A stretch of 64,000 nt of DNA from positions 135,532,001 through 135,596,000 of the forward strand of contig OZ360221.1 in the NCBI GenBank assembly GCA_977017645.1. Direction: 5' to 3'. Positions 1 to 63,706 of the stretch are shown here, piece by piece. A program made the translations under genes and the position numbers. The first letter of the stretch is position 1, and each line of letters starts with the position of its first letter. Source of the stretch: Torpedo marmorata. Lineage: Eukaryota. The notes under the pieces were generated by a model that was not told the DNA's origin, made no database searches, and saw nothing but the letters and a program-made list of their open reading frames with translations.

Positions 1-1710
1 ATTAAATTATTTACCATTATTTATCAAAATTAAAAAAGATTTAGAGAGTTGGAAGGATTTACCTATAACTTTAATGGGATGGTTAAATTGTATCAAAATG
101 AAGGTTTTTTCCAAGAATTCAATATATTTTTCAATCAATACCTTATGAAATCCCTCAAAAATGTTTTAAAGATTTAAATTTAATTATTAGGAAGTTTCTG
201 TGGAAAGGAAAGTTGGCTAGAGTAGGTATAGAGAAATTAACTTGGAATTATGAAATAGGTGGTTTACAACTTCCTAATTTTCAAAATTATTATAAAGCAG
301 CTCAATTAAAATTTGTTAATGAATTTTTTGATTTAACTAAGTCTTCTGCTTGGATTAGAATAGAATTAAATAATATAGTAGAAGATTTCAAAGAAGAAGT
401 TATTTATAAATGGAATTCTAAATTAATATTAACAAGAAGGAAGAACTCTCCTATTTTTAAACATTTGTTAGAAATATGGAATAGAGTGGATAGGGAAATA
501 GGAGGAAAAGGGTTGATTTCTCCAAAAATGCCTCTATTTCAAAATGAACATTCCATTTACTGTTGATAATCAATTATTTAAAATTTGGTTTCAAAAAGGA
601 ATTAAGAAAATAAATGACTGTTTTGAAGCTGGTAAATTTATTACCTTTCAAAGAATGAAAGATAAGTTCAATATATTGGATAATACACATTTTGCTTATT
701 ATCAAATTAGAGCATTTTTAGTTGGGAAATTAGGTTATAATTTGATTTTACCAAGACAGAGTGAGTTAGAATTATTAGTTACTAATGGAGGTATAAATAA
801 ATTTATTTCCCAAATGTATAGATTGTTTCAGAGAAAAATGCCTAAAGTAGGAATTCATAAATCAAGATTAAAATGGGAATCAGATTTGAATGTAACAATA
901 GATGAAGATCATTGGAAAGAATTATGTAAACTAAGTATGACGAAGATTATTAACGTTAGATATAGATTAGTTCAATATAATTTTTTTCATCAATTATATT
1001 TAACGCCTAAAAAATTAAAGACATTTAACGCGACATTATCAGGCTTATGTTTTAGATGTAATAGAGAGGAAGGTTCTTTTGTACATTCTACATGGTTTTG
1101 TCCAAAGGTTTATGATTTTTGATTGAAAGTTAAAAAGGTTTTAAAGTATTAAAAATTACATTCCCAATGGACCCTATGATATTTTTATTAGGAGATATTA
1201 AAAGAGTTAGTATTAAGATGAAATTAAATATGTATCAAATAGAATTTTTGCGAATTGCTTTAGCTATTTCTAAGAAGTGTATTGCTATTACTTGGAAATG
1301 TGATGTAGATTTAGGGTTAGAAAGATGGCATGCAGAACTTCGTTCTTGTATACCACTTGAAAAAATTACTTATAATTTACGTAATAAATATCATTTCTTT
1401 TTGAAAATATGGAGCCCTTATATGAAGGTTGTTGGTTTAAGGATTTGAAGATCTCTGGACATTGGATCTGACTGGCGAACCTATCCTCCATAATAAAATT
1501 ATTTATAGATGTATTTTTTAGATTGACATTCTCCTAATACTATCTTTTTCTTTCTTTCTTTTTATCTTTATTAGATTAGAAGTGGTCAGAGGGTTAGGGA
1601 GGGGAGGGAGGCAGGGGGGTTGAAAATGTATCACATGTAGTTTGACAATTTTATATTTTATCTTATGTATTTTGTGATTTAAAATTTTAAATAAAATATT
1701 TTTTAAAAAA
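1..1710 (+). mobile_element. L1-clade LINE, 3' part of ORF2 (frameshifted) plus 3' UTR and A-tail
   Basis: ORFs 213-566, 544-1122 and 1167-1448 are near-copies of the C-terminus of ORF2 at 30607-34401 (GGLQLPNFQNYYKAAQL, CFRC..HSTWFCP zinc knuckle). Ends with AATAAA and an A-rich tail. Confidence 0.93.
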
Positions 1711-2003
1711 GCAAGTGTAAGCAAATGGAAAAGAATTTAAGCGAACAAACTTCCATAGCAGATATCTGAACCCAGATGTCAAAGACAATAAAAGGGGCCA
1801 GGTTTACATCAGAGTTGAAAGAACCAAGAGGAGATGGGGACTGGAAGTATTGCAGAACTAGTGAAGGGCTAGGCTAAGCAATGCAGCAATATCTATTTAC
1901 ATTGGCTTTGCTGAACAATGATCTCCCTCTGAAAAATGCATGTATGCTTTGCTTAACTTTCACATTGTTTTTGTGTGGAAGTTTTTTGAAAAGATTCACA
2001 ATA

Positions 2004-2479
2004 CAGGTTTCCCCCGCTATCCGAAAGTAGAGCGTTCCTATGAAACCTTTCGTAAGCCGAAATGGCGTAAAACGAAGAAGCAATTACCATTAATTTATAC
2101 GGGAAAAATTTTTGAGCGTTCCCAGACCCAAAAAATAACCTATCAAATCATACCAGATTCATCTAACGGATGCACAAAATAAATCGAAATAAAGCACAGA
2201 TGCTCACAGACACAGTTCAAAGCCATGGCGGCTTGATGCTGAGTGTAGTTCCCAGGGAAGGAGCTTGGTGGCGCCACTCTCGCTGCTCGAGGTGCCCGCT
2301 GCCTCTATAACGGCTAGCTGCAAAACAAACGATGAACGCTATTTTTGCTTTTCACCTTTTTTCGTAAAAGCGAAAATCCTCTTCGGATTTCTTTCAGTTA
2401 GCAAAAACAGGTACTAATGTATGTCTTTCGTAAAAGCGAAGTGGCGTAAAGTGAACTTTCGAAAAGCGGGGGATACCTG
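2004..2479. mobile_element. Non-autonomous Tc1/mariner (Tigger/pogo-like) MITE
   Basis: Imperfect TIRs: CAGGTTTCCCCCGCTATCCGAAAGT and ACTTTCGAAAAGCGGGGGATACCTG. TA dinucleotides flank both ends (2002-2003, 2480-2481). Confidence 0.85.
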
Positions 2480-2904
2480 TACTCCCAAGTTTGAAGACTT
2501 TTAGCAAAACACAATCTAATGGAGGAACTCAGCAGGTTGAGCGGCGTAAGTGGGAGAACAAAAAGTGTTGATGTTTCAGACCAGAACCCTTCATCAAGAC
2601 TCTGAATGAGAAGTAGTTTACATCTGTCAACTCTTTAAAAAAACCAAAGCTCGATTCTAAAATAAAAACAGAAATGTTGAAAATACTCGTGAGGTCAGGC
2701 AGCATCTATGAAAAGACAGACAAAGGTTCTGTGACCTGAAATTTTAATTCTGTTTCTCTTATTATAGATCCTCTCTGACCTGCGAGAATGTTTCCAACAT
2801 TTTCTGTTTCTCTTTATTCTGCATTGAAGTATTAAGATTCAAGGAGTTAATACTGCTCATAGTTAGTCTATTACTTTATTCACAGTTACCTTGTTACAGA
2901 GTTA

Positions 2905-3181
2905 GTAAAAACACAAAAATGCTGGAGGAACTCAACAGGTCACGCAACATCCATAGGAGGTAAAGACATATAACAAATATTTCTGGCCTGAGGGAGGAGC
3001 GAAAACCAGGCAGACGCCCGAATAAAAAGTCTGGGGGAGGAGGGAAGAGAACAAGGAGGAGCACTGGCAAACAGGCAAAAGGCCATAATTGGACATGGAT
3101 AGGAGAGGAAAGGTGAGAGTTGAACGAGGAGGGGATGGCTCTGTGAATGCAGAGCTGGACGAAAAGTGACAGAGGGAAAGG

Positions 3182-3213
<32 letters not shown>

Positions 3214-3290
3214 AGATAGTGGAAGGGGAGAGACTGGGGGAAGGGCGGGAGGGGGCTAACGGAAACTGGAGGTCAATGTTAATGCCATTG
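2905..3290 (-). mobile_element. Penelope-like element 3' end (pLTR/tail), inverted against the adjacent body
   Basis: Reverse-complement similarity to the Penelope tail at ~12660-13070 (TGCTGGAGGAACTCA..AGGTCA motif). An inverted tail abutting the body is typical of Penelope insertions. Confidence 0.65.
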
Positions 3291-4672
3291 TCGCAAACTC
3301 TCGCCCAAGCCACCCTAGCCCCGGTGGCCGACATGGCCAAGCCTCCATCGTGAACTCTCAACCTGGCCTCTAAATCCCTCCCCCTCCCCCCTCTGACTTT
3401 CCCAACACTCCCCTTCCTCCCTTGGATCCATCCACCCTCCACCTCCTGATCCACCCCATCCCCTGACAACCTCCACCCCATTGACCCCCCCACTCCAGCC
3501 CCTGCCTGATCTTTACCATCCTCTCTGACCTTCCCCTCTCAGATACAGAACGTTCTATCCTCAGTAGAGGCCTCACCTTCGACCTCTTTGCCCATGATGC
3601 CAAACTCTTCTTCCCTTGGCTCCGTCTCTGTGCCTACTTCTTTCATCAGGATTCTCCAACCCAACTACAGACCCCTTCTCCCAATTTATACCTTTTTCTT
3701 CCTCTTGGGCACCGTGTTCTGGTCTTCTGCCCGCTCTGGATCGTTACATTTCTAACTGCCGCCGAAACATCAAGCATCTTGACTTCACCACTCCCCTCAC
3801 TTATTTTAATTTTAACCCCTCGGAACGCTCTGCCCTCCTCTCTCTCTGCACCAATCCCAACCTCATTATCAAACCCCTAGACAAGGGTGGCACTGTTGTT
3901 GTCTGGTGAGCTGGCTTTTATCTGGCCGAAGCAAAATGGCAGCTTTCAAACACCTCCTTTTACTTTCCCTTTCAACAGGACCCCACCAAAACTCATCAAA
4001 CCATTCTCTCATGCACGATCTCTGACCTCATCACTTCCCGTCATCTCCCTTCCACGACCTTCAACCTCTGTTTCCCAACCCCGCACTGCCTGGTTCCACC
4101 TCTTACCCAGGATCCACAAATCCAATTGTCCCAGCAGACCCATTGTTTCTGTGTGCTCCTGCCCCACCGAACTGATATCCGCTTAACTCGATTCAGTTTT
4201 GTCTCCCCTGGTCGAGTCCCTTCCCACCTACATCCGCAATACTTCATATGCCCTCTCTGGTGACATACCAAATCTCTTCCAACTCCCAATGACATATAGC
4301 CGCTGGCGTGCCTTCTTCATGATTGCATCACATAATGGCCCCAGGATAGGTCTTTAGAGATGTTGACACCCATATCAACAACTTCCAGTTCCCTGAACTC
4401 GACTGCCTCATCTTCACCATGGACATCCAATTGCTATAAATCTCTATCCCTCATACTGAAGGCCTCAAAACCCTTTGTTTCTTCCTCGATAACAGACCCA
4501 ACCAGTCCCCCTCCAGCACCATCCTCCTCTGCCTGGCAGAATTCGTCCGCACCCTAAATAACTTCTCCCTTGACTCATCCCACTATCTACAAGTCAAAGG
4601 GGTAACTATGGGTACACACATGTGCCCCAACTATGCCTGTGTTTTTGTTGGCTAAGTGGAGCAATCCATGCT
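3291..4672 (+). mobile_element. Degenerate Penelope-like element, RT N-terminal half
   Basis: Peptides NPNLIIKPLDKGGTVVVW, LLPRIHKSNCPSRPIVS and GVTMGTHMCPNYA match PLE RT motifs (IKPADKG, LPKIHK, RPIVS, G.AMG...P.YA). A small minus-strand Rex fragment interrupts at ~4260-4375. Confidence 0.8.
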
Positions 4673-4880
4673 GGAAGAAGAAGAATGAAGAGGACGAATG
4701 AAGAAGAATCAGGTTTATTGTCATGAACATGTGTTATGAAATATGTAGTTTTGTGGCAGCAGTATTGTGCATTACAGGTGCAAAATTGCTATAAATTAGA
4801 AGATTTAAATTAGTGCAAAAAAGAGAAAAAATGTGAGCTTGTGTCTCTCGGGGTCTCTAGGTTCATTGTCTGTTCAGAAA

Positions 4881-5417
4881 TAGACCAAAGTTGAAGTTAT
4901 CAACATACCAACCGAAATTTGTAAAAATTGCTTTAGCAGTAGCAAGGAAGTGTATAGCAGTAACTTGGAAATCAGATACAAATTTAGGTATGGATAGATG
5001 GAATATAGAGATGCGGAGTTGTATCCCACTGGAAAAAATAACATATAATATGAGAAATAAATATGGGGTCTTTTTGCAAATTTGGCGTCCATATATCCAA
5101 TCATTAGGTATGAATATTTAAATGTGTTGCTCTACATCCTAGACCCTGTTGACTCTCTCAAATTTAAATAATAAAAATACTGTTGAATACCATGCGTCGA
5201 GCTGTGGACCCAGCAGCGATCCGTACAGATGTTTTTAATAAGTAATACTAATGCCTTCTTTTCTGTTTTCTTTTTAGTTTTTTAGTAAGGGGAGGGAATT
5301 AAAGGGAGGGGAAGGGTGAGATACACTATGTAATACAAATTATGTTTTTTTATTTACTGGAATTAATAATGAATATTATATACATTGTATTACTGTGTAA
5401 AAAATTTAAAAATTTAA
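4881..5417 (+). mobile_element. 5'-truncated L1-clade fragment (different subfamily) inside the Rex 3' region
   Basis: ORF 4891-5121 (ALAVARKCIAVTWKSD..CIPLEKITY) matches the L1 ORF2 C-terminus, followed by a distinct 3' UTR, AATAAA and A-tail. Confidence 0.85.
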
Positions 5418-7750
5418 AATAAAATATTTTTAAAAAATGTGATAGCAGAGGGCAAGAAGCTGATTTTGTAACATTGGGTATTATCTTCAGGTGCCTGTAC
5501 CTCCTTTCTGCGGTAGCAGTGTGAAGAGGGCATGGCCTGGGTGGTGAGGGTCCTTGAGGATAGAGGCTGCTTTCTTGAGACACCGCCTCTTGTAGATGTC
5601 CTTAATGGAGTGAAGACTAATGCCCATTATGACAATGGCCGAGTTCACAATTCTCTGTAGCCTTCTCCTGTCCATCAGCACCTCTGTACCAGACAGTGAT
5701 CAACCAGTCAGAATGCTCTCCACGGTACACCTGTAGAAAGAGTCCTTGGTGACGTACCAAATCTCCTCGAACTCCCAATGAAATATAGCCGCCTGCGTGC
5801 TTTCTTCATGATTGAATTGACATGATGGCGCCAGGAGAGTTCTTCAGGGATGTTGACACCCAGGAATTTGAAGTTCCTTACCATCTCCACTGCTGACCCC
5901 TCGCTGAGGACTGGTTTATGATCCCCTGGTTTCCCCTTCTTGAAGTCCATAATCAATTCCTTAGTTTTGCTAATGTTGAGTGCAAGGTTGTTGTTGTGAT
6001 ACCATTCAACTGGTTGATCTATCTCACTCCTGTACGCTTCCTCATTGCCGTCTGTGATTCTGCCAACAACAGTGGTGTCATCGGCAAATATGTAGACAGC
6101 ATTTAAATTGTGTCCAGCCACACAGTCATGGGTGCAGAGGTAGTAGAGCAGTGGGCTAAGCACGCATCCTTGAGGTGCGCCTGGGTTGATTGTCATTGAG
6201 GAGGAGTTGTTGTTACCAATCCACACTGACTATGGTCTTCGGATGAGGAAGTCAAGCATCCAGTTGCAGAGGGAGATACAGAGGCCTCGGTTTTGAAGCT
6301 TGCTGACAAGTACTTAGGGGATGATAGTGTTGAAAGCAGAGCTGCAATCGATGAAAAGTAGCCTGATGTAAGTGTTGCTGTTGTCCAGGTGATTGAGGGC
6401 TGAGTGGAAAGCCAGTGAGATTGCATTCGCTGTGGAACAATTGTGGTAGTAGGCAAATTGCAATGGGTCAAGTTCTTTTCTTAGGTACGAGTTAATTCTG
6501 GCCATGACCAATCTCTCAAAGCATTTCATCACAGTAGATGTGAGTGCTACTGGGTGATAGTCATTGAGGCAGCTCACTCTGCTCTTCTTGGGCACCGGTA
6601 TGATTGATGCCCTTTTGAAGCAGGTGGGAACCTCCGACTGCAGCAGTGAGAGATTAAAAATTTCTGTGAACACTCCAGATAGTTGGTTGGCGCAGATTTT
6701 CAGTACCCTGCCAGGTACACCATCAGGGCCTGACGCCTTAAGAGGGTTCACCCTCTTGAAAGATGTTCTGACGCTGACCTCTGGAACAGATACCACAGGG
6801 TTGCCAGCTTATGCAGGGATTCTCAATGGTGCAGTTGAATTCTCCTTTTCAAAGTGATCATAAAAGGTGTTCAGTTCATTGGGGAGTGAAGCATTACAGC
6901 CATTTATGATGTTAGGCTTCACCTTGTAGGATATAATGGCCATAGCAGCTGGCGAGTATCTGATTCTGTTTCTAACTTCAATCAGAATTGCCACTTTGCT
7001 GTTAAGATAACTTTCCGTTGGTCATACCTGGACTTCCTGTAGAGATCTGGATCACCAGTCTTAACCTCAGCAGGTTGTGAATCTTTTGATTCATCCACGG
7101 CTTTTGGTTGGGGTACTCACAGTATCCAGCCCTCGATCACCTGGACAACAGCAACTCATCCACAGAGGTTCTGATGAAATCGGTGACAGCTGTGGCACAG
7201 TCATTCAAGTTTGAAGATAAATCCTGGAATATGTTCCAGTCCACTGACTCAAAGCAGTCCTGCAGGCGCTCACCCGCCTCTCTTGACCATACTTTCACCG
7301 TCTTCACTACTGGTGCTGTAGTCCTCAGTCTCTGCTTGTACGCCGGGAGAAGTACAGCCAAGTGATCAGACTTGCCGAAGTGCAGGCGTGGGATGGCATG
7401 GTAGGTGTTCTTGATGGTGGTGTAGCAGTGGTCAATTATGTTGGCTCCTCTGGTTGCACAGGTAATACGTTGGTGATAGTTTGTCAGAGATTTCTTCAGG
7501 CTGGCCTGGTTGAAGTCCCACACAATGATCGTGAAGGCATCAGGGTATGCTGTCTCCAGGCTGCTGATTACAGTTCTCAGCCCCTCCAGTACCAGCCTGA
7601 TGTACGCCTGGGGCGGAATGTACACTGCAACCAGGATGATTGTGGAGAACTCTCTCAGTAGATAGAATGAAAGACACAATAGCCACATGATCCAGGTCGG
7701 GGGAGCAGGACTGGGACATGACCATTACGTTTGTGCACTATAATGAATCA

Positions 7751-8698
7751 TTGTATTTGACAGCACATAAGACCGCCCTTTTATTCCCCAAATATCGCCT
7801 CAAAAACCACCCCTGGTCTTATACGTGAAGGTGACATTTTGGTGCCGCCATTTTTGGCACCGAGTGGAGTCCAGGAAGCGGGCCCGCAGCTTCACGCACC
7901 ACCTTCCCTTGGGTGGCCCGTGCTTTCCGGAGTCTCCGCCACCGCCGCTCACTTCCACCGGTAAGAAGGCTCGCTCTCTCCCTCCTTCCCGCCCGCTCTC
8001 TCCCTCCCGTTCGCTCTCCCTCCCCACCCGCTCGCTTTCTCCCCGCCCGTTCGCTCTCCCCACCCGCCCGCTCTTCCCGCCCTCACCCGCCCCTGCTCGC
8101 TACCCGCCCTCGCCCACTCGCTCGCCCTCACCCTCTCGCCCTCTTTCGCTCTCACCAACAGTACTTTGAGGGGAGTGCTGGGCCTCGATGATCAGCCTTT
8201 GTTCGACAAGCACGGACCCTTGAGCAAATTGAATGAGGCGCGGGGGCGAGTGGCAGTGAGCAAGTGGCCTGTCAAGCTCAGCTCAATAGGCCGCTGGCTC
8301 ACTGCCACCCACCCCTCTTTCAATCTGTCCGGGGGGCCGTGCGCGTCGAACAAGAGCTCAGCATGGAGCCTGATCACCGAGGCCCAGCGCTCCCCTCAAA
8401 GCAAAGCAAGCGATTGATTGTCAGCTCCCCGCGACGTTGGGCCTGGGCCCTGCCCATTGTTCTGGCTTCTCTCCCTCCCACCCTCGCGCGCCTGCAGGTC
8501 CCGGCACACCTGTCAATCAATTAGCGTTTGGACGGTGGGGGGAAGCAGCCTGAGCCTCGGCGTGTGGCGGGCAGGAGGACGTGTTGCTGCTGTGAAGGTA
8601 AATACACTAAAACAATTTTTTCCTGAAATCTCACGCTAAAAATGGGGGAGGGGGGGGAATCCTATATGTCAGTGGGTCCTATATGCCGTCAAATACAG
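7751..8698. mobile_element. Non-autonomous Tc1/mariner (Tc2/pogo-like) DNA transposon with GC-rich interior
   Basis: Imperfect TIRs: TTGTATTTGACAGCACATAAG and CCTATATGCCGTCAAATACAG. TA follows the right end, CA precedes the left. It interrupts the Rex APE region. Confidence 0.75.
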
Positions 8699-9226
8699 TA
8701 ACGATGAAGCGAACGCCGCCGCCTCTGCCTTTACCTGACACCGGTGTCAGTCCGCACATTGGAAGGTGAAGCCCTCAGACTACAGAGCTCTGTCCGAAAT
8801 GCTTTCATTCAGCCATGTCTCAGTGAAACACATCACACAGCAATCCCTGATGTCGTTCTGCTGCTTTAAATTCGGAGTTCATCAAGTTTATTTTCTAAAG
8901 ACTGTACAGTACATAGGCCGGGAAGATGGTAGGGAGTGGAGGCCTCAGGGCCCCGCGTTTTAGTTTAACCTGTCGCTGCCCTGCTCCTCTGCGTCCATTT
9001 GTTTGAATCTTCCTTAAAGGTCCCATGGGCCGGCTGCCTGAATCGCCCGCGTTCCGCCGGATTTTGCCGTTTCTGCCAATCACCAAGATTTTCAACACAC
9101 TTAATACAATGTTACAGGTTCATTGGTTTCTGTGGCTGTGGGTTCGAGCTGAAGTAGTTCTAAACGGGAATATTTGAAGATTCCCATCGTAGCTGCAAGC
9201 AAAGAGTTGCCGCTACAAAGCGCCAT

Positions 9227-9868
9227 AGCCTACACAAGTAAGGCTACTCAACTCTTCCCCCACTTCATTGACGACTACATTGGTGCTCGTCGACTTTATC
9301 CACTTTGCTGCCAACTTCCACCACAACATCAAATTCACTTAGTCCATCTCTGGCAGCACTCTTCTCTTTCTCGATCTCTCTGTCTCCATCTTGGGAGACA
9401 AATTCACAACGGACATTTTCCACAAACACACCAACTCCCACAGCCACCTCGACTACACCACTTCATACCCTGTCCCCTGTAAGGATTCCATTCTTTACTC
9501 TCAATTCCTCCATATCTGTCGCATCACCTATCAGGATGAGGTCTTCGACACAAGATCTTCCGAGATGTCCTCCTTCTTCAAAAAAACGTGGCTCCTCTAC
9601 TTCTATTTACTCAGCCCTTACCCATCCTCCATTATCCGCACATCTGCCCTGCCCTCCTCCACCCCAACGTGCAACAAGGGCAGGATTCCCCTTGTCCTCA
9701 CTAACCACCCCACCAGCTTTTGCATCCAACAAATCATCATCCGCCATTATGCCACCTACTAATTGATCCCACCACCAGACACATCTTCCCTTCTCCTCCC
9801 CTCTCCTCCTTCTGCAGGGACAGATCCCTCTGTGATTCCCTTGTCTACTCCTCCCTTCCTACCAATCT
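9227..9868 (+). mobile_element. Penelope-like element, continuation (RT catalytic region and thumb)
   Basis: QLFPHFIDDYIGA (YIDD motif), TDIFHKHTNSHSHLDYTTSYPVPCKDSILYSQFL and GRIPLVLTNHP. Follows collinearly from the 3291-4672 segment. Confidence 0.8.
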
Positions 9869-10815
9869 GATTTGTAGATTTTGGGAAGGGAAAACCAGAG
9901 GTGTACGATCCAGTGATCAATGGGAAATCAGAGGTGGAGAGCATGAGAAAATTGAAATTCCTGGGAGTCACTATCTCGGAGGACCTTTCTGGACCCAACA
10001 TACTAATGTCATCGTGAAGAAAGCACGTCAGCACCTCTACTTCCTCAGGAATTTGCAGAGGTTCAGTAGGACATCGGATACATTGGCAAACTTCTACAGA
10101 TGTATAGTGGAACGTGTGCAGACCAGCTGCATCACGGCGTTGTATGGGGGCACCAATACCTCTGAGCAAGAAAGCCCTACTAAAGGTAGTGGGCTACAGC
10201 CCAGTACATCACAGGCAAAACTCTCCCCACCATTGAGAAAATCTATGTGGAACATTGCAGTCAGAGAGCATCAGCAATCATCAAGGATCCACACCACCCA
10301 GGACATGCTATGTTCTCACTACTGCCATCAGGAAAGAGGTATTGGTGCTACAAGACTTGTATCACAAGTTTCAGTTACAGTTGCTACCCCAACACCATCA
10401 GACTCCTAAACAACAGACTAAGAGACTTTTGAGGACTCTTAGTTTGCACATTATTTATTACTGAATATTGTTTTCTGTATTTGCGCCGTTTGTATTCTGT
10501 ATTTGCAAACTTCCCACGGGCAGTGAGAATGCTGAATGACCAAAGGAACTGCTCACGCTAACCATCCGAGACTCTCATATGTACAAAACAATATTTATTT
10601 ATTTATTTGTATAGATAAAATATTTGTCCTGCATATGTATTGTTTGTCTTTATGTGTGTTATGTTTGGTTGTGTGTCTGCAAGTTTTGCACCGAGGCCCG
10701 GAGAACTCTGGTTTCGTCGGGTTGTACTTGTACAATCAGATGAAAATAAACTTGACTTGTTTACATTTCTTTCTTTGTTTGCATTTCTCTCTTTTGTATA
10801 CATGTATTAGAATAT
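9869..10815 (+). mobile_element. Rex1/Babar-type LINE 3' fragments (two nested 3' ends)
   Basis: KKARQHLYFLR and [23 protein letters not shown] second 3' UTR with (CTTGA)n tail lies at ~10505-10760. Confidence 0.75.
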
Positions 10816-11220
10816 TTCTTACCTGCCATCTCTGCTCACCACCACTCAATCCAGCCCTACTTACCCACCTCCAAACTAATACCCATAGTCACACCTAAAG
10901 AAAGACAACATTATCCAATCCCAAGTCCTTCTAAGAAGTGGAGCAGATTTTGAGTTGCTCGCATAAAGCCAAAGAGCCAAAAGCAAAATGCATCCTCTCC
11001 TCATCTCAGTACAATCCAGAGCCACTGCTAAACTCCACAGCAAGTCCAGCAGCAGAAAAGAAACTCTCGTGCATTATTATATGACCTCCATCTTATCTCT
11101 AACTTTCAAGCAAACCAATGAATATATGTCGTAGAACAGGTAACCAATGGCTCCTGGGAGAACCTCTGCCCACAACAAAGCACAATACTGTCCAATACAT
11201 TGTCATGGAAAAACACTCAT

Positions 11221-11363
11221 CTCTTTGACCAATGTAAATATTTGATTAATTGGTGTCCAGACAAATGACCAAATACAAGATGTTTTTGGTAATTCTCTTT
11301 TAGAATGGGAGATCTAACTTTCTTGAAGATGTATACAGCTTTATTTTTCAATTTTGATGGCAA
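11221..11363 (-). pseudogene. DNAH11: DNAH11 exon 2, apparently inactivated
   Basis: Acceptor TTTTTAAG| then LPSKLKNKAVYIFKKVRSPILKENYQKHLVFGHLSGHQL, aligning to recalled human [48 protein letters not shown] (48 aa). The exon is 143 nt. After a -1 shift it reads QIFTLVKE and is followed by ATGAGT instead of GTGAGT. Synteny with SP4 supports the call. Confidence 0.8.
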
Positions 11364-12382
11364 CTTAAAAATTAAAATATTAGAATGTTTAGTTATTGTC
11401 AATTAATATTTACTGATTTGCATGCCAGTTGATAAACAAGAACAAATGTACAAAATAAACATTGCACACACAGCAGGATCATAAGTTGTGCAATTGTAGT
11501 CTCTCTCCCTCCATGTTTTACCAAGGACATACATCTTTCTTGTAATATTTACTTTGCTTTTCAATATTCTCCTGCTTCTCTTTCTTGTCCTTTTGGTGGC
11601 GCTGTATTAAAATAACATCTCTGTGTACCTTTATAGGGCAAACAAAGGAAAGATCTTTGTGTATTTTGGGTACATGACAATAAATGGAATCTTTAATTTT
11701 GAAATAACACACCATTCACAATGCTAGAGTCACATACTCACCTCTGCTAAATCCCACATTCCCATCACAAATAATATTTTGACAGAATTTTCATGGGCCC
11801 CTCATGTCCCAGTTAACAGAATTCATTTTCTTTGCCATTACTTTCAAATCAGTGCCAAGGCAGAAAGACTTCATCCATGTTATCTTAGTACCTACTTAGC
11901 AGCATAACAGTGAACTGTTTCTGAGTTTTAAGTACTTAGCTCTATTTGTATCACACAAGTGCTAAGTATCACCACCTCCAACAAGTCTCAACACATGACC
12001 TGCACAATTCCCATTCAATGACTTACCACAGTATTCTCCAAAGTAAGGGCATTGGATTCCAATTATCACTGACTAGAATCCTGATTGGACAAGGTTTTTT
12101 TTTAAACATACTGTCAGACCAGAGCCTGGATATTCTTCAGAAGGCAACTTGCTTTCTAACTTCCAATCCCCTTCCACCATCTACAAGCCACAAGTAAAAA
12201 GTGTTACAGAAAATACTCAATTTGCCTTGATAAGTGTGATTCCCACAATAAGTAGCAGAACATCATTCAGGATAAAGAAGCCATTTTATTGATTAGTGCC
12301 TGCATTAGAAATGTTTGCCACAAAAAAATGTGATCATTAAGAACAAGCCAAACCAATTCCAATGGCATTTGATGAGATTACC

Positions 12383-13072
12383 ATTACACCTCCTCCATCA
12401 CCACTATTCAGGGTCACAAACAGTCCTTCCAAGTGAAGCAACACTTCACCTCAATCTGTAGGGATTTATTCATCCTGATGCGGCCTCCTCTACTTCAAGG
12501 AGACTGGACGTAGACTGGGAGATCATTTTATTGAGCACCTTTGCTCCATCTGCTGCAAGCACCTCCCAGTGCCCAACCATTTTAATTCCACACACCATTG
12601 CCACACTAACATGACTCATGTACTGCCAAATCACAGCCACCCGTAAATTGGAAGATTCCATCTCGGCAGTCTCCAACCAAACGACATCAATATCGAGCTC
12701 TAATTTCTGTTATCCCCCTCCCCAGTCTCTCTCTTTCCTTCTCTCCTTTCCTCCAGCTCCCCACCCCTTTTCCTTCCTTCTCCAATCAGAGAGCTACCCT
12801 TCTTAACCCTCTACGCTCCGCTTCTTTTTCTTCTATGCTCCCATTTGTTCTTACCTATTACCTTTTACCTGTTAACAGGTGCTCCTCCCCCTTCCTCCGT
12901 CCTCTCCCCACCTTTTTATTCAGGTATCTACCTGTTTTTCCTGATTCCTGAGGAAAGGCTCAGGCCAGAAACACCGGCTGCCTTTTACTTCCTGTGGATG
13001 CTGCGTGACCTTCTGAGTTTCCCTTGCACTATTGTGCATTGCACTCAACCCCAGCATCTGCAGATTCTCGTT
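12383..13072 (+). mobile_element. Penelope-like element 3' portion (decayed GIY-YIG endonuclease, tail with hammerhead-like motif)
   Basis: TSSITTIQGHKQSFQVKQHF and CGLLY..ETGRRLGDHFIEHL are GIY-YIG motifs. CTGAGGA..GAAAC at ~12948-12972. Confidence 0.75.
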
Positions 13073-13465
13073 TAATTAGTGTGTCACACAGTCACCTTGT
13101 ACTGCAGCATATGACACATCACATCTGCACTGATCATTTTGCCCTTCTACTCCAATCCAATTTGCCAGCATTAAGATTGTATCCTTCAATGCTCGACAAC
13201 TTGTGTCTTGTCCGATTGTACTGGATTCTGTCTTCTCCTCTGGCAGCACATTGCAGCTGTCAATCCTTATCCTCAAATCCCCTTGAAAACTCTTACCTCT
13301 CATCTTAAACCTATACCTGTCGTATTGTAAAAAAGTTTTTGACAGTCTACCCTTCCTACGTCTCTCAAAATCTTTTATACTTCTTTCAGGTGCCACTCCT
13401 CAGCCTCCTTTGCTCCAGGAAAAACAAATCCAGCCTTTCCATTCTCTTCACAATGGCACAGTTAG

Positions 13466-14148
13466 TCAAGTCAAGTGTATTTGCCATCTGATTGTATGAG
13501 TACAACCCGACGAAACAGCGTAACCTGGTCCTCGGTGCAAAACATGCAGACACACAACCAGACATAACACACATATAGACAAACAGTACATATGCAGGAC
13601 AAGTATTTCATCAATACAAATAAATAAATAAATATTGCTTTGTACATATGAAAGCCTTGGATGGTTAGTGTGAGCAGTTCCTTTGGGTGTTCAGTATTCT
13701 CACTGCCCGTGGGAAGAAGCTGTTCCTCAGCCTGGTGGTGTTAGCTCTGATACTCCTGTATCTCTTCCCCGATGGGAGCAGCTGAAAGATGCTCAGTGCA
13801 GGGTGGAAGGGGTCCTCAACAATTATACGCACCCTCTTCAGACAATGATCCCGGTAGATCACATCGATGGTCGGGGGGGGGGGGGACGGAGTCTCCAGTG
13901 ATCTTCTCTGCCACTCTTGTGGTCTGATGGATTGACCTCTGATCCATTTCTCTGCAGCAACCGTACCACACTGTGATGCAGCCGGCTAGGACGCACTCAA
14001 TAGAGCTCCTATAGAAGTCTGACATAATGGTGGCCGGTAGCCTTGCCCACTTCAGTCTTCTCAGGAAATGCAGTCGCTGTTGCGCCTTCCTGCAAGTGAG
14101 ATGTTGAGTGTCCACGATAGGTCACTAGTTAAGTGAACTCCAAGGAAC
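13466..14148 (-). mobile_element. Rex1/Babar-type LINE 3' fragment
   Basis: ORFs 13816-14115 and 13665-13862 (KAQQRLHFLRRL, DPFHPA..LLPSGKRYRS), with a (TCAAG)n tail. Confidence 0.8.
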
Positions 14149-14385
14149 AAGTTAGCGCAGCTGTTAGTGGAGTGCAATTACAGCCCAGCAGCCCGGGTTA
14201 GAATCTGATGCTGTGTGTAAGAGGTTTGCACGTTCTCCCCGTAACCTGTGTGGTTTTTTTTACAGGTGCTCCGGTTTCCTCCCACCCTCCAAAAACATAC
14301 AGGGTTTGACAGGTTAATTGGGCGGCACGGGTTTCATAGGCTGGAGGGGCCTTCTAACGTGCTATATGATTTTAAAAAAAAAGTA
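14149..14385 (+). mobile_element. V-SINE (HE1-like)
   Basis: V-domain core GTTTGCACGTTCTCCCCG..GGTGCTCCGGTTTCCTCCCAC, a tRNA-like head and an A-rich end. Related copies at 44028 and 45916. Confidence 0.7.
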
Positions 14386-14549
14386 AAGTCAACATGCTAT
14401 GAATCTCCTTTGCAATCTTTCCAGTGGGGAAGCCCATGGTGAAAGTTGAAAACTAGTATGATCATTTTAAAATCAGCAGATGCTTAACCAGAACTCATGT
14501 AGGTCAGAGAAAATACACAGGTAATTAATGTGTTTTCCGATTCTTTACA

Positions 14550-16232
14550 ATAAGTCCTGGCACGACCTGCGGAAGGCCATCTCTGAAGCAAAGTGGCAAT
14601 TCCGGAGGAGGCTAGCGACAGACAGACATACACCAGCTATGGCAGGGAGTGCAGGCCATTACAGCCTACAGAGCGTGGGCAAACACTATAGACGGCTGTG
14701 ATGCTTCACTACCCGATGAGCTGAACACCTTCTATGCCCACTTTGAGAAGAAGAACCAAACAGTGCCTACTAGAATCCCTGAAAAGGCTGAGGACCCTGT
14801 GATATCTGTCTCTGAGGGTGACGTCAGAACATCATTCAAGAGGGTGAACCCTCGCAAGGCATCAGGCCCTGACGGCGTACTGGCAGGGTACTGAAAATCT
14901 GCGCCAACCAACTAGCCGGAGTGTTCACGGACATTTTCAACTTCTCATTGCAGCAGTCAGAGGTTCCCACCTGCTTCAAAAGGGCATCAATCATCCTGGT
15001 ACCCAAGAAGAGTAGTGTGAGCTGCCTCAATGACTACCGCCCAGTAGCACTAACTTCTACTGTGATGAAAAGCTTTGAGAGGCTGGCCATGGCCAGAATT
15101 AACATGTACCTAAGCAGAAATCTGGACCCACTGCAATTCGCCTATCGTCACAATCGCTCCACAGCATATGCAATATCACTGGCTCTCCACTCAGCTCTGG
15201 ATCACCTCGAAAACAGCAATTCATACATACGGCTGCTCTTCATCGACTACAGCTCGGCCTTGAATACCATTATTCCTTCAGTGCTGGTCAAGAAGCTACA
15301 AACTCTCGGCCTCTGTACCCCACTCTACAACTGGATCCTTGACTTTCTCATCGGAAGACCACAGTCAGTAGGAATTGGAAACAACGTCTCCTCCTCACTG
15401 ATTATCAACACAGGCACACCCCAAGGATGCATGCTTAGCCCACTGCTCTACTCGTTATACACCCATGACTGTGTGGCCAGGTACAATTCCAATACCACCT
15501 ACAAGTTTGCTGATGACACCACAGTTGTCGGCAGAATCACAAACGGCAATGAGGAAGCATACAGGAGGGAGATAGATCAGCTCGTTGAATGGTGTAACGA
15601 CAACAACCTTGCGCTCAACATCAGCAAAACCAAGGAAATGATTGTGGACTTCAGGAGGAAGTCAGGGGAATGTTTCCTCCATGTTGATGCAATCACAAAG
15701 AAAGCTCGCCAGCGGCTATACTTTGTGAGGTGTCTGAGGAGATTCGGTATGTCACCGAAGACTCCAGAAAACTTCTACAGATGTACCGTGGAGAGCATTC
15801 TGGCTGGTTGCATCACTGCCTGGTATGGAGGTACCAACTCTCAGGACAAGAATAAACTCCAGAGGGTTGTTAACTCGGCCTGTGACATCACAGGCACCAG
15901 ACTTCACTCCATCAAGTGTCTTAAAAAAGCAGCCTCTGTCCTCAAAGACCCCCACCACCCAGGCCATGCCCTCTTCACTCTGCTACCATTGGGAAAAAGG
16001 TACAGGAGCCTAAAGACGAGTACTCACCGGCACAAGGACGGCTTCTTCCCCGCTGCCATCAGATTCCTGAATAATCAATGAACCAAAGACACTGCCTTAC
16101 TTTTCGTGCACTATTATTTATCTTTTTTTATAGTAATGTCGTAAGATGGTTATAATATGAATGTTTGCACTATGATACTGCCGCAAAACACCGAATTTCA
16201 TGACTTGTTCATGACAATAAATTCTGATTCTG
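14550..16232 (+). mobile_element. 5'-truncated Rex1/Babar-type LINE with frameshift and internal deletions
   Basis: ORFs 14649-14894 and 14921-16081 are near-identical to 36082-38106 (YKFADDT). (ATTCTG)n tail. Confidence 0.9.
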
Positions 16233-16354
16233 AAATGGATGTCAAGTAGATAAGAAATAGTCAAGGACAACCAAATTAATGGCTTAGAGAAGAGAACCCA
16301 CTCGAGAGTAGTTTCCACCTCTGAGTGGATAGCTAAAAATGGAAGCAGGCTAGT

Positions 16355-17090
16355 GTGGTCCTGATAGAGGTGGGTAAGTTATTTCCATTGGTAGGGGAGA
16401 CCAGAACTGGGACATCGCCTCAAAATTCAGGGTAGTAGATTTAGGACAGAGATGAAGAGGAACTGCTTTTCCCAGAAGGTGGTGAATCTGTGGAATTCGC
16501 TGCCCATTGAAGAAGTGGAGACTACCTCAGTAAGTATATTTAAGACAAGGTTGGATAGATTTTTACATAATAAGGGAATTAAGGGATATGGGGAAAAGGC
16601 AGGTAGGTGGAAATGAGTCTATGATCCAGGGTCGGTGCCAAGGGGTGGGGGGGGCGGCATTCACGGGTATTGCCCCCTCCCCCAAGCGAGGTTCTGTGCC
16701 CCCCCCCCACATTGCTCGCTGTCAGACCCGCCCCCGCCACTTGTGTGCGTCAAGCATCATTAGCGTCTAGTTTTACGTACACGATACTCTCCACCTGCCC
16801 CTGTTACCAGCGCAGACTAGTGACTCTCGACGCAATAAAAGCAGCACTTTTGGCTGCTACCGTCCGAGGAGGTTTACGTCCATTCCGAAGGTAGTCCAGC
16901 AGCACCCCGCTGAGCGAGTTTATGACTGTCGGACTGTGCCACCCCCGTTACCCTAATGCCCCCCTCTAACACTCGTTCTGGTGCCGACCCTTCTATCATC
17001 AGATCAGCCATGATCTCATTAAACAGCGGAGGTGGCTTGACGGGTCAGATGGCCTACTCCTGCTCCTATTTCTTATGTTCTAACGTTCTT
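16355..17090 (+). mobile_element. CR1-type LINE 3' end, interrupted by a hAT MITE
   Basis: Encodes FRTEMKRNCFSQKVVNLWNSLP (CR1 C-terminal motif). The 3' UTR ends in a TTCTTATGTTC-type tail. Confidence 0.7.
16627..16992. mobile_element. Non-autonomous hAT MITE
   Basis: Ends CAGGGTCGGTGCCA and TGGTGCCGACCCTT. 8-bp TSD CTATGATC (16619-16626) and CTATCATC (16993-17000). Confidence 0.8.
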
Positions 17091-17935
17091 ATATTCATCA
17101 GATGGTTGATGGTGCACAGCTACAAAAGTGGATGACTTGTTCAACCATGTCAAAGGCTGCAATGAGGAGTTGAAGAGTGAGGAGAAAGAGATTACATTTG
17201 TCATTATTACTGGATGCCACAGGTAAATGTGATAAAAGGCATTTCAGGACTGTGTTGGGTGTGGAACTAGATTGGAGGTATTCAAACAAGTGCTTCCAGA
17301 AGTAAACAGTAAGTCTGCAGATGGTGGAAAACTGGAACAGTACACAAAGTGCTGGGGAACTGAGCAGGTCAGGCTGAATCCATGGAAAGAGATAGACCTC
17401 CTGAGTTCCTCCAGCATTATGTGTACATTTCCAGAGGTGATGGGCACAAATGTGGGAGATTACAAGGCGTTTGCCAGACTTAAAACTAAGAAATGTTACA
17501 AATTGATGGCGGTTCCTGAAATCCAATTCTGCAAGGTTCGATCCTTCCACACTTGATCTTTGAGATCCCCTGTAAATATCATGCAACACTATCAATACAA
17601 GGCAAAGATCAAGTTCTGAATTTGAAATTGATCACAAGATAGTTTAATAATTTTTTAAAATATCAAAACCCTTAAGTTTAATAAAACAATCTAACGTAAA
17701 GGTCATTACATTCTGCCAAACAAAACTAAGGGAAGATCAAATACCATATTATTTAAGGTTGTTCTAGTATTTAAATTGCATCTTTCTAGTAGGATCGGAT
17801 GTAATTCGCTCATGTATATGTAACATGTAACTTCGGCGATAATTGACGGATGTGGGGGAGGAGGTCACAAAGCAAAACCTTTTGCAACTTTTAGCTCACC
17901 AGAAGCCATTTCTAAGATTAGTCGAATGTCCTTAC

Positions 17936-18208
17936 TTTATAGGAGGCTGCCGCGAGCCCCGTGCCACTGAGGAAACACATCATCAAACGCTCTCTTTCCA
18001 GAAACTCTTCCAAGACCTTCTGATTCTCTGCCCTCTTCATGAACTGGACCCACTCGTCTGTTCGGAGGTTCAGCGACGAGATGACCCGCTGTGAATTGTA
18101 CTGCACCCTCATCGTCTGCTAGAATTGCCTCCTGCTGTCCCTTCTTTTCTTCGATTATTCTTTCCGCTTTTGGAGTTATTTTTTTTCGCAACTTCCAACA
18201 ACGTTCAT
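17936..18208 (-). pseudogene. DNAH11: DNAH11 exon 1, 5' part disrupted
   Basis: RVQYNSQRVISSLNLRTDEWVQFMKRAENQKVLEEFLE..GLAAASYK|GTAAGG resembles recalled human [48 protein letters not shown]. The phase-0 donor matches exon 2. The upstream ATG at 18208 is in frame but hits TAA at 18178-18176. Confidence 0.75.
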
Positions 18209-24294: not shown

Positions 24295-24745
24295 GTCAAT
24301 AAAGTGGCTGTTTGGAACAGAAAATTGAAGGAACGAAGATAGAATAATCTCTCTGTGCTTTGGACTGATATTTAAAATAAAATGGTGGCCATCTTGAAGA
24401 TGCCTCGAGTTGGGGGCAGTTTGTAATCCACATCCATCTGCCATGAGTAACAGCCAGAGAGGGATTTAAAGCTTCAAATCTTATAGTAAAGTGTCCGATA
24501 AATACGTTGGAGAAACCATTTTTGGAAAATCAGTGATATTATTGACGGATGTTGTGGTTGAAACTCGTTTGTGGATAGCAGCACATTACAGTCATTTGAA
24601 GTGGTAGGCATAAGTCTGTGGACTCCTTCTGTGTATCTTTAGCAAGTAAGAACACAGATTGAAATTGCTGCCGCTGGTCCATTGGGGACTGTTGATTTGG
24701 CTAGTGTTGTGTATGCTTGAAGGACAGAGGAACAAGACGAGTAAA

Positions 24746-27700
24746 ATGGCCGCAGCAGCCTCTGATACAGCAGCTACTGATGTATCAGCAGCTAACGCAG
24801 CAACCGCTGATATTGCTGTTGAGGACCAATGTATTGAAGACATGAAGATTGCGGATATTAAAGAAGAATTGAAGCGACTGAAAAAGGACATAAGTGGAAA
24901 TAAAAAGGTTCTTATCGCAAGATTGAAGCTGGCAAAGGATGAAGAGGCAGCTTCATTAGATGAACAAGATGATAACTTGGAAATGGCTGAAATTGTGTCA
25001 CCAAATGATGAAGAAAATGTTGAAGAAATTGAAGAGGTTGAAGATGCAAAGGATATACAATTCGAATTGGATAAAGAGATAAGTATGAAGACAACATATG
25101 AACTGCAGGATGAAATACAAGCAAGTGACAGTGTCTCAAATGCTGAAAGCAGGAGAAGCAAAAGAAGTTCTGGTTCGAGCTCCAGAGTTTCTCGTACTTC
25201 AAGTTCTGCATCGTCACGTACAAAGATTGATGTTAAATTGGCCGGTTTTCTTGCACAACAAAAAACGCTTAAGGATAAATATATTTTAGAACAAGAGGAG
25301 GAGCAGCTAAGACAAAAGGAGGAGCAGCTAAGACAAAAGGAGGTGCAGCTAAAGGAGCAGCTAAGACAAGAGGAGGAGCAGCTAAGACAAAATGAGAAGC
25401 AGCTAATGGAGCAGCTAAGACAAGAGAAGGAGCAGCTAAGGCAGAGAAAAGAACAGCAGGAGCTGGAAGCAAACATTGCTATTGCCAAGGCAGAAAAGAA
25501 AGCAATAAAAGGCTCAATGGTATCTGGTGCTGGAAGTAAATTATCTAAATTGTCTGATAATAAAAGGTCATATTTAAAAAATGAGTCACAGGAAAAGAAA
25601 CCAACCAAAAGGATAGATATTTTAGAACCAAGGATACAAAACTTGCATATACAAGGACAAACCTTTCAAGAGCATATTGGTATCGAGTCACATGTACCAA
25701 TGGTAACATCTGAAAGCAAAGCTGCGGCTTGGGTTCGGTCGAATGAAGCAGCTTCTTTGTTATTTGAGTCAAGCATCAGAAATATGGAAGAAACTACACC
25801 AGTGAGGTTTCCAGATACATTGCATGCAACAAGAGACGGTGAACAGAGCAATGTATTGTCATCCAAGGAAAGACAAAATGAAATTGCTGCATCATTGTTT
25901 CAGTTACAGTCTCTCTCTTCTTTACCCAAGAAAGAGATACAAACTTTTGATGGTGATCCACTTCAGTATCAATCATTTATGAGATCTTTCAAACGCAATA
26001 TTGAAGATAAATGCCAAGATCGTGATGAATGTCTTTATTATTTGGAAATGTTCACAAAGGGACATCCAAAAGAACTGGTAAAGAGTTGTAAACAAATGTC
26101 TTCAGAAAGAGGATTAGACAAAGCTAAGGCTTTACTGGAACAATATTTTGGCAACAAGCATCGAATTGCTTTAGCTTATATAGATAAAGCTCTTAAATGG
26201 ACATCAATAAAACAAAATTATGTAAAGGCTCTGCAAGAATATACTCTGTTTTTAAGAGGATGTTGTAATGCTATGGAAGATATCGATAATATTCGTGAGC
26301 TTGAAGTGCATAGTAATATGCGAATCATCTTAGAAAAATTACCTTACAAGTTATGGGATAGATGGAGAAATTTGGCTTGTGATTTACAAGTAAATTACAG
26401 TCGAAAAACGACTTTAAAGGATTTGGTAAATTTTCTTGAACAACAGGTGTACGTTGAAACAGATCCACTATTTGGAAATACCAAAGATAATTCAATGGGC
26501 AAAGATGTAAGGAAGTCTAATTCACAGCCTAGTCCGAAATTGAAAAGGAGTACTTTTGCTACTAATGTGTCAGTTATAAGTAAAGAAAAGGACAAAGTAA
26601 ATAAGGAAAAGGAAAGTTTGCCTGATGAAAAGAGTTGTTTGTTCTGTAAAGGTGGACATGCTTTGGAAATGTGTTTACGATTAGAAAATAAGGAACATAA
26701 GGAAAAGATCGCTTTCTTAAAGGAAAATGGAATATGTTTTAGCTGTCTGTGTAAAGGGCACATCAGTAAAAACTGCAAGAAGCGAATTAATTGTAACATA
26801 TGCAATTTGAAACATCCTAGAATTTTGCATATCCATAACAGAAACAAGGAATTGGGAAAGGAGCAAACAGAAACAAAGGAAACAACAGAAAATAATGTTA
26901 TAACCTCAGTTCAGACAAGTGGTCTTACCGGGGCCGATGTGGATAACTGCAAACTTTCGATAGTACCTGTACAAGTCAAGACCAAGAAAGGGGATGCAAT
27001 AGTAAAAACATATGCATTTCTAGACCCAGGCAGCACTGCATCTTTTTGCACGGAAGGACTAATGAATAAACTTAATATTCAAGGAAGAAGATCAAGAATT
27101 ATGTTAAAAACCATGGGACAAGAAAAGGTTGTTGAAACTAACATTGTTTCAGGCTTAGAGGTTGCTGGATTGAAAGACAAAAAATTTTGTGATCTTCCAC
27201 GTTTATATACTCAGAAGACTATGCCTGTGCATGAAGGAAATATTCCTCATCAAAAGGATATCCATCATTTAGCTTATCTGTGGAAGGTTTATTTACCTGA
27301 AATTAATTCTGAGATAGAAATGCTGATTGGTTCAGATATGCCAAAGGCTTTGGAACCACAAGAAGTAATACAGAGTAAAAGGAATGGACCATACGCTATT
27401 AGAACCAAGTTTGGTTGGACAATCAATGGACCATTGGAAAGAAATAATGATATTGCTCAGGAACAGTTAGCGATAAATATTAATAGAATTTCGGTTGTGA
27501 AAGTTGAAGAGTTAAGCGAAGAGCAAAAAACTGTGAATAAGAAAATCACGTTTGAAGAAAAGAAAACAGGTCAATGTGAAAATAAATCAAGGATATTTAA
27601 AACAACATTGAAAGAATTATTTTCACCAAAAATGGATGAAAGTGAAGTATTAGAAGATTTTGCAAATAATACTATTGATTATTCATGTGTAATTGAATCA

Positions 27701-62983: not shown

Positions 62984-63234
62984 TTAATATTCATCTATGC
63001 TATTCGCCACAGCTGACATTGTCGGACTGGAATCCTGGGAAGAGGTGGTTATGGCGACCATCCTGGGAGAGACTAGAACTTCTGCCACAGATGCCTCCAT
63101 GTCTGGTGATATATTCCCAACAGTTTGAACAACTGCAGCACCTTTCTTGTTCTGATGGGTTTTGACATGTTTTGAAAGATGATCACTCCTCATAAACCGC
63201 TTTGAACACTCTGGGCAGGAGAACTTCTTTTCAC
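62984..63234 (-). CDS. SP4: Transcription factor Sp4, last coding exon (third C2H2 finger and C-terminus)
   Basis: Acceptor TTGTAG| then [53 protein letters not shown], matching recalled human SP4 (SVTEVLGSPRIV..SQDSNP..MEEF). SP4 precedes DNAH11 on the same strand in human. Confidence 0.93.
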
Positions 63235-63706
63235 CTACAAGACAATGAGAATAAATTAACTGAGAATATACCATGATCTATTATCCTACTCGGGGGCTGG
63301 GGAGCTGGAAGAATGGTGGAATGCAAGGTTGGAAGCATTCCCATTGCAATGATATAGACTTGTTCATGTTTCATTCTTTGGATCCAGAGGAGCATTTGGG
63401 TTGCTATTTTCACTTCGCAAATTTCCATGAAGAAGCACTGTCCTTTGCAAAGTGCAACACAGAGGCCTTGAGCGCAGGATGAAATATGCAGCAAGTATAG
63501 CTTCCTTCAGGCAAAATTGTGCACGATATTCCAAGGAGATTGCACAGCCACAAAAACAAATAAGGGACAAAGGATGAAAATACTAGAGGATTCCTAAAGC
63601 CTATTTAAATGGAAGTTTTGTACAAGACAGATATCAAATTACATCATTGTGGATATTTTCAGTGTACCAAAAATACAAAACAGTATAATGACTTGTATGC
63701 AAATAC

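What the first reader, a model, noticed from the sequence alone, without database searches (positions are those of the whole stretch)
11215..18208. DNAH11 (left-right dynein) appears pseudogenised at its syntenic locus
Seen: exon 2 is 143 nt between a good acceptor and the expected end, the protein-like reading continues only after a 1-nt shift (HQL/QIFTLVKE), and the donor reads ATGAGT, not GTGAGT. The unshifted frame stops at TGA 11219-11217. Known: DNAH11 follows SP4, its exon 2 encodes 48 aa (recalled), and it drives motile and nodal cilia (mouse iv/lrd, human PCD). Inference: gene loss in this lineage, which would bear on left-right patterning and motile cilia in cartilaginous fish. The 3.8-kb AT-rich L1 ORF2 nearby is intact, which argues against a generally indel-prone assembly.
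Basis: partly seen in the sequence, partly recalled or inferred. Interest (0 to 1): 0.88.

Follow-up and report, generated by a model that had tools for sequence, protein, structure and literature searches.

The report
Cartilaginous fish lost left-right dynein DNAH11
This cartilaginous fish carries only a broken copy of DNAH11, the cilia motor that mice and people need to set left from right, and its sister gene is broken too; it likely copes because the related motor DNAH9, unbroken in the parts read, would do the job.

Summary
Confirmed and extended. Exon 2 is 143 nt with an ATGAGT donor, as reported. The gene runs 665 kb between SP4 and CDCA7L and groups with shark DNAH11 (bootstrap 100). 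It carries 17 frameshifts and 17 in-frame stops, about 7 more lost splice sites, and 816 of 4,460 reference residues are absent, with no assembly gaps. Controls from the same assembly are clean: DNAH17 (80 exons, 13,374 nt, 0 lesions) and 26 sampled DNAH9 exons. No intact copy was found. No reads cover exon 2.

New: the sister paralogue beside CDCA7 is also dead and more decayed. Sawshark and bamboo-shark DNAH11 fragments are open at these sites, so the loss looks lineage-specific, not general to cartilaginous fish.

The left-right inference is weak. MMP21, a PKD1L1-like gene, two Nodal and two Lefty genes are open where read, and frog and zebrafish organisers need Dnah9. The best reading is loss of a redundant beta heavy chain; loss of the ciliary organiser is about 15% likely. 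Four paper searches and four look-ups of this scan's findings showed no earlier report.

The parts
17936..18112 (-). DNAH11 pseudogene exon 1, 3' coding part (59 codons, GTAAGG donor)
   Evidence: 20 of 65 aligned residues identical to human-type P0024, with the same exon end
18113..18208 (-). 5' part of exon 1. The frame from ATG 18208 has 3 stops; another frame is open but has no ATG. A frame change near 18110 is probable, not proven
11364..17935 (-). intron 1, containing retroelement fragments
11221..11363 (-). DNAH11 pseudogene exon 2, 143 nt (one base short), frameshift near 11258-11245
11215..11220 (-). dead splice donor ATGAGT; TGA at 11219-11217 ends the unshifted frame
1..11214 (-). 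intron 2. The gene continues beyond the window: exon 3 at G000:C5:135520090, last exon ending at C5:134885503
62987..63277 (-). open frame holding the last exon of SP4 (synteny marker; its first ~14 codons are intronic)
   Evidence: the name SP4 comes from recalled zinc-finger motifs and position

Best explanation
The locus is the true DNAH11 gene, dead through dozens of frameshifts, stops and exon deletions, and its loss was likely tolerated because DNAH9 would supply the outer-arm beta heavy chain in motile cilia, including any left-right organiser cilia. Shown: orthology, decay along the whole gene, a dead sister paralogue beside CDCA7, an intact DNAH17, and open DNAH9 exons where read. Inferred: the ancestor had four beta chains (DNAH9, DNAH17, DNAH11 and a DNAH11-like gene); the DNAH11-like gene died first and DNAH11 later (roughly 3-4% neutral change ago); DNAH9 now serves somatic cilia and DNAH17 sperm (roles recalled from other vertebrates). 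My odds: real pseudogene about 0.97; DNAH9 substitution with a ciliary organiser kept about 0.65.
For: Synteny SP4-gene-CDCA7L. In the tree it joins Pristiophorus and Chiloscyllium DNAH11 (100) within a DNAH11 clade (95). One search lists 38 lesions in the 71 of 90 segments kept; 16 frameshifts and 17 stops remain after dropping 5 edge cases, plus the exon 2 shift. Against sawshark DNAH11 alone there are 8 frameshifts and 7 stops in the last ~1,130 aa. Eight blocks (816 aa) are absent, and the gene has no N gap. AAA1 reads GCFNEFNR where DNAH17 has GCFDEFNR (Walker B label recalled). The rate is raised: 77 vs 38 lineage-specific changes against sawshark, chi2 13.2. Controls: DNAH17 80 of 80 exons clean; DNAH9 26 of 26 sampled exons clean (names). 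An orphan copy of one exon keeps the base that the main copy lacks. Dnah9 depletion disrupts organiser function in zebrafish and frog (PMC4199803, passages). Zebrafish Kupffer's vesicle is thought to use Dnah9- and/or Dnah11-containing arms (PMC6008050, passages). MMP21 exons 2-7, 10 PKD1L1-like exons, two Nodal and two Lefty genes are open.
Against: There are no reads over any lesion and no expression data. Only about 38% of DNAH9 was read. DNAH9 does not rescue Dnah11 loss in mouse (iv/lrd; PMC4199803), and dnah11 was detected in the zebrafish organiser but not in testis (PMC6008050), so losing both DNAH11-type genes could equally mark loss of organiser cilia. DAND5 was not found, though that search also missed NBL1. 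CIROP and C1orf127 could not be tested. The shark references are partial gene models, so their full genes may not be intact.
Confidence: 0.65

Rival explanations
1. The loss marks abandonment of the cilia-driven left-right organiser in this lineage, as in birds and reptiles. DNAH11 decayed because its organiser role went, and MMP21 and PKD1L1 are kept for other uses or have not yet decayed.
For: Both DNAH11-type genes are dead. DAND5 was not found here and is reported absent from batoids, holocephalans and most shark orders (PMC12344233 section 22). dnah11 is expressed in the zebrafish organiser. Two bird DNAH11 models sit on long branches and one is labelled low quality.
Against: After about 3-4% neutral decay of DNAH11, MMP21 exons 2-7 (6 of 6) and 10 of 10 PKD1L1-like exons read are still open. 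These genes are reported lost as a cassette in some vertebrate lineages (Szenker-Ravi et al., seen only as cited in PMC12344233; that those lineages lack organiser cilia is recalled). DAND5 absence is far wider than this loss.
Confidence: 0.17
2. DNAH11 was never the organiser dynein in cartilaginous fish. It served another ciliated tissue (brain ventricle, kidney, ear, oviduct) whose demands relaxed, so the loss says nothing about left-right patterning.
For: Beta chains are deployed tissue by tissue in zebrafish; dnah9l was seen only in the otic vesicle (PMC6008050). The left-right genes read here are open.
Against: No expression data for any shark or ray were found. DNAH11 is an organiser gene in both mouse and zebrafish, which suggests an old role.
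Confidence: 0.13
3. This is a dead duplicate, and an intact DNAH11 exists elsewhere or in unassembled sequence.
For: Genome searches score only the best candidates (47 of 215). A 727-bp orphan exon copy exists at C5:164.51 Mb.
Against: The broken copy sits at the syntenic site. DNA searches with exon 1 and with two late exons found only this locus, plus DNAH9 at 70-79%. Three dynein-domain searches showed no further full beta locus. No other DNAH11 exon lies in the 20 kb read around the orphan.
Confidence: 0.03
4. The lesions are sequencing or assembly errors.
For: No reads could be laid on exon 2. A 4.3-kb tandem triplication at 99.8-100% identity lies in one intron.
Against: 17 stops at aligned codons without a frame change, whole-exon deletions, exons split by inserted DNA and a raised amino-acid rate are not indel-error patterns. 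DNAH17 has 0 lesions in 13,374 nt. X1 contigs match the flanking intron with 2 differences in 230 and 3 in 162 bases.
Confidence: 0.02

Closest known systems
DNAH11 / left-right dynein (mouse iv/lrd; human primary ciliary dyskinesia gene)
   Same: Orthologous by synteny and tree; 869 of 1,018 residues identical to Pristiophorus DNAH11-like; same domain order.
   Different: It cannot encode a motor: it is broken from exon 2 on. Here it is an apparently fixed natural loss, not a disease allele.
Unitary pseudogenes of axonemal dynein heavy chains (Kollmar 2016, PMC5100056, passages)
   Same: Many frameshifts and missing parts beyond assembly error. That paper termed 7 of 3,272 dyneins pseudogenes, in fish and bird genomes among others, and calls loss of a single axonemal dynein rare.
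   Different: The losses listed there concern other classes (DHC6, DHC8, DHC9). The word 'shark' does not occur in the main text. One of its 3 supplementary files could not be searched.
Loss of the CIROP/C1orf127/MMP21/PKD1L1/DAND5 left-right cassette (as cited in PMC12344233)
   Same: Loss of a gene tied to the ciliary organiser; DAND5 not found here.
   Different: DNAH11 is not in that cassette, and MMP21 and a PKD1L1-like gene are open here.
Zebrafish dnah9l (third beta chain, tabled next to DNAH11 in PMC6008050)
   Same: Probably the counterpart of the second dead gene at C39:105.40-105.52 Mb, which groups with catshark GCB73975 and a Podarcis protein labelled DNAH11 (100).
   Different: No zebrafish dnah9l sequence was in the tree, so the identity is inferred.

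Membership tests
DNAH11 orthologue | Lies between SP4 and CDCA7L, tail-to-tail with CDCA7L | tested here: met
   neighbour names rest on recalled motifs, and the expected synteny is recalled
DNAH11 orthologue | Groups with named DNAH11 proteins, apart from DNAH9 and DNAH17 | tested here: met
   (21 sequences, LG+G4; support 100 and 95); the two C53 genes were named by best PDB hits, 2 of 2 and 3 of 3 exons
Functional outer-arm beta heavy chain | Open reading frame of about 4,500 aa with intact AAA1-6, stalk and tail | tested here: not met
Unitary pseudogene | Multiple disabling lesions, with introns retained at the ancestral locus | tested here: met
   17 frameshifts, 17 stops and 8 missing blocks over 665 kb
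Unitary pseudogene | No intact copy elsewhere in the genome | tested here: met
   the searches give lower bounds and cover assembled sequence only
Unitary pseudogene | Lesions confirmed by reads or shared with a sister species | tested here: inconclusive
   run X1 does not cover exon 2; no relatives' genomes are held
Unitary pseudogene | Relaxed selection (dN/dS near 1) | tested here: inconclusive
   No shark DNA was available for dN/dS. Protein proxy: 56 vs 27 and 24 changes at 481 conserved sites
Lineage that lost the ciliary left-right organiser | MMP21 and PKD1L1 lost | tested here: not met
   MMP21 exons 2-7 open, exon 1 not located; 10 PKD1L1-like exons open, rest of the gene not read
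Lineage that lost the ciliary left-right organiser | DAND5, CIROP and C1orf127 lost | tested here: inconclusive
   DAND5 was not among 6 DAN hits, but NBL1 was missed too; the CIROP and C1orf127 searches were blank and insensitive, missing even LMLN
Lineage that lost the ciliary left-right organiser | No motile cilia or flow at the embryonic midline | not testable with these tools
   needs embryos

The most novel reading that the evidence does not exclude
This lineage has lost the whole DNAH11 branch of outer-arm dyneins (both sister genes) on top of DAND5, and is dismantling the cilia-driven left-right organiser independently of birds and reptiles: a cartilaginous fish that breaks symmetry without nodal flow while still holding MMP21 and PKD1L1.
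Probability: 0.17. Interest if true: 0.85.

Novelty: new member of a known kind. Interest (0 to 1): 0.58.

Why it matters
DNAH11 loss randomises body situs in mice and causes ciliary dyskinesia in people (the human part is recalled). A vertebrate that lives without it and without its sister gene is a natural knockout. It makes two open questions testable: whether one beta heavy chain, DNAH9, can run all somatic motile cilia, and whether sharks and rays use ciliary flow to break left-right symmetry. For the second, my two searches listed no direct study.

Tried and rejected
Reads: one DNA run was listed and no RNA holder. Its contigs do not cover 11179-11519, so there is no verdict on exon 2.

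Homologue searches: exon 1 alone found nothing. No full-length shark or ray DNAH11 was obtained, because short queries reach only proteins up to 2,000 aa. Alignments A1 and A2 of exon fragments were misaligned and not used.

Left-right genes: the Peptidase_M8, DUF4556 and M8-motif searches were blank but did not find LMLN either, so they are uninformative. The PKD-channel search gave no hit at the PKD1L1-like locus. The protein atlas gave only REJ/PKD-like leads below 0.9. No X-box-like motif was found near exon 1.

Rows dropped before counting: 19 of 90 aligner segments as filler over deleted exons (low identity, no support); 4 stops and 1 frameshift at exon edges; 1 of 27 DNAH9 segments (25 of 99 identical); 1 stop in a filler stretch.

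Lineage: ray versus shark was not resolved; the grouping with sawshark has support of only 81. Earlier scan findings held nothing on DNAH11.

Full report
Setting. The window is G000:C5:135,532,001-135,596,000 in a 6.22-Gb assembly. Dynein-domain searches place one heavy-chain gene on the minus strand, from window 18.2 kb down to C5:134,885,503, about 665 kb. I fetched all of it. It contains no N run; the only one in the 864 kb held lies upstream, in the window. SP4 exons lie upstream and CDCA7L exons lie tail-to-tail downstream (names from recalled motifs).

Observation. Exon 2 spans 11363-11221 (143 nt), is followed by ATGAGT, and its first frame stops at TGA 11219-11217. The human-type reference has a 48-aa exon with the same 5' boundary. 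The shift is supported by exon length and by resemblance to Cyprinodon DNAH11 after it; the aligner did not call it unaided. Exon 1 ends at 17936 with a normal donor, and its DNAH11-like frame is open only from ATG 18112. The single run found does not cover exon 2.

Orthology. In a tree of the last ~1,150 aa (21 sequences), the gene joins Pristiophorus and Chiloscyllium DNAH11 (support 100) inside a DNAH11 clade with bony vertebrates (95). This also shows the organism is a cartilaginous fish; ray or shark was not settled. The two beta genes on C53 are DNAH9 (52 Mb) and DNAH17 (17 Mb) by best PDB hits.

Decay. I wrote a spliced, frameshift-aware aligner and ran it with Cyprinodon DNAH11. Of 90 segments I kept 71. 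They hold 38 listed lesions; after dropping 5 edge cases, 16 frameshifts and 17 in-frame stops remain, plus the exon 2 shift. About 7 more splice sites lack AG or GT (placement by the aligner). Against the much closer sawshark protein (85% identical) the last quarter alone shows 8 frameshifts and 7 stops, and the bamboo-shark reference gave the same lesions over its span. Eight blocks totalling 816 of 4,460 residues are absent, and 17 references searched interval by interval did not find them. One block is aa 2011-2179, which aligns at 61-68% in DNAH17. Two exons are split by inserted DNA. Amino-acid change is faster than in sawshark (77 vs 38, chi2 13.2), and 32 of 386 otherwise invariant sites are changed. 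That suggests roughly 3-4% neutral divergence since the loss; this is an inference and is not calibrated to years.

Controls. With the same aligner and reference, DNAH17 gives 80 exons, all GT-AG, 13,374 nt, with no stop or frameshift. Twenty-six DNAH9 exons (about 1,690 aa, 38% of the protein) are clean. A 727-bp orphan copy of one DNAH11 exon at C5:164.51 Mb (94.4% identical) keeps the base that the main copy lacks. DNA and protein searches found no second DNAH11; these are lower bounds.

Second loss. A further beta-chain remnant at C39:105.40-105.52 Mb lies tail-to-tail with CDCA7. It is riddled with stops and shifts against catshark GCB73975 and groups with that protein and a Podarcis protein at 100, as sister to DNAH11. 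Only its 3' quarter was found, with nothing in the 43 kb read upstream. It is about twice as decayed (34 of 215 invariant sites changed). It is probably the whole-genome-duplication sister of DNAH11 and the counterpart of zebrafish dnah9l (inferred). The genome thus keeps two of four beta chains.

Left-right genes. MMP21 exons 2-7 are open and splice in phase; exon 1 was not located. Ten exons of a PKD- and REJ-domain gene at C5:175.03-175.07 Mb are open. I call it PKD1L1 from its domains and recalled sequence features, and its 3' part was not read. Two Nodal and two Lefty genes are open in the parts read. DAND5 was not among 6 DAN hits, but NBL1 was missed too. Kuraku reports Dand5 absent from batoids, holocephalans and most shark orders (PMC12344233, section 22 and passages). 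CIROP and C1orf127 remain untested.

Mechanism. Shown: no DNAH11 protein can be made from this locus. Inferred: DNAH9 fills the beta position in somatic cilia. Dnah9 depletion disrupts the organiser in zebrafish and frog (PMC4199803, passages; PMC5872349, table passage), and zebrafish organiser arms are proposed to hold Dnah9 and/or Dnah11 (PMC6008050, passages). Against this, mouse DNAH9 does not cover for Dnah11, and no embryo data exist here. I give substitution 0.65, organiser loss 0.17, a role unrelated to the organiser 0.13, and duplicate or artefact 0.05.

Novelty. Searches for DNAH11 with pseudogene and shark, with chondrichthyan, and with gene loss returned 0 papers; dnah9l with dnah11 returned one. 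The library lacks most subscription journals. Kollmar 2016 (passages) notes 7 dynein pseudogenes among 3,272 and calls single losses rare; one supplementary file could not be searched and may list fish cases. PMC8393663 and PMC8836003 (passages) added nothing on loss. Szenker-Ravi et al. was not read, only seen cited. The verdict is a real, apparently unreported, probably lineage-specific double gene loss of a known kind; its bearing on left-right patterning is open.

Noticed in passing
G000:C39:105,403,371-105,519,167 (+), loci L180-L188 and L198-L202: Second dead outer-arm beta heavy chain gene, the sister of DNAH11, tail-to-tail with CDCA7. Its counterparts in catshark and a lizard are open gene models; the Podarcis protein labelled DNAH11 appears to be this paralogue.
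   Followed up: yes
G000:C5:164,514,978-164,515,704 (L178-L179): Orphan 727-bp copy of one DNAH11 exon with flanks, 94.4% identical, frame intact.
   Followed up: yes
G000:C5:135,230,680-135,244,579 vs 135,274,645-135,282,556: Internal duplication of a few DNAH11 exons at 96.5-98.6% identity, broken up by insertions.
   Followed up: partly
G000:C5:135,409,306-135,422,403: 4.3-kb unit repeated three times at 99.8-100% identity inside the gene: a young tandem array or an assembly expansion.
   Followed up: no
G000:C53:57.35-57.66 Mb: At least four partial copies of the 5' part of DNAH17, in both orientations.
   Followed up: no
G000:C52:39.37-39.39 Mb, C75:12.26-12.28 Mb, C1:338.76 Mb: Three MMP21-like genes, where humans have one (recalled).
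   Followed up: partly
window 24650-28177 and 28702-30330 (+): A 1,176-aa open frame with a SAP domain and a 543-aa frame with no Pfam match lie directly before the intact L1-like ORF2. Similar SAP frames occur nearby (C5:135,635,732), so this is probably a mobile element.
   Followed up: partly
proteins P0065, P0185, P0204: Bird DNAH11 models are on long branches, and two are labelled low quality, hinting at relaxed DNAH11 in birds.
   Followed up: no
G000:C53:76.5-76.7 Mb: A second PKD1-like gene besides the one on C56.
   Followed up: no
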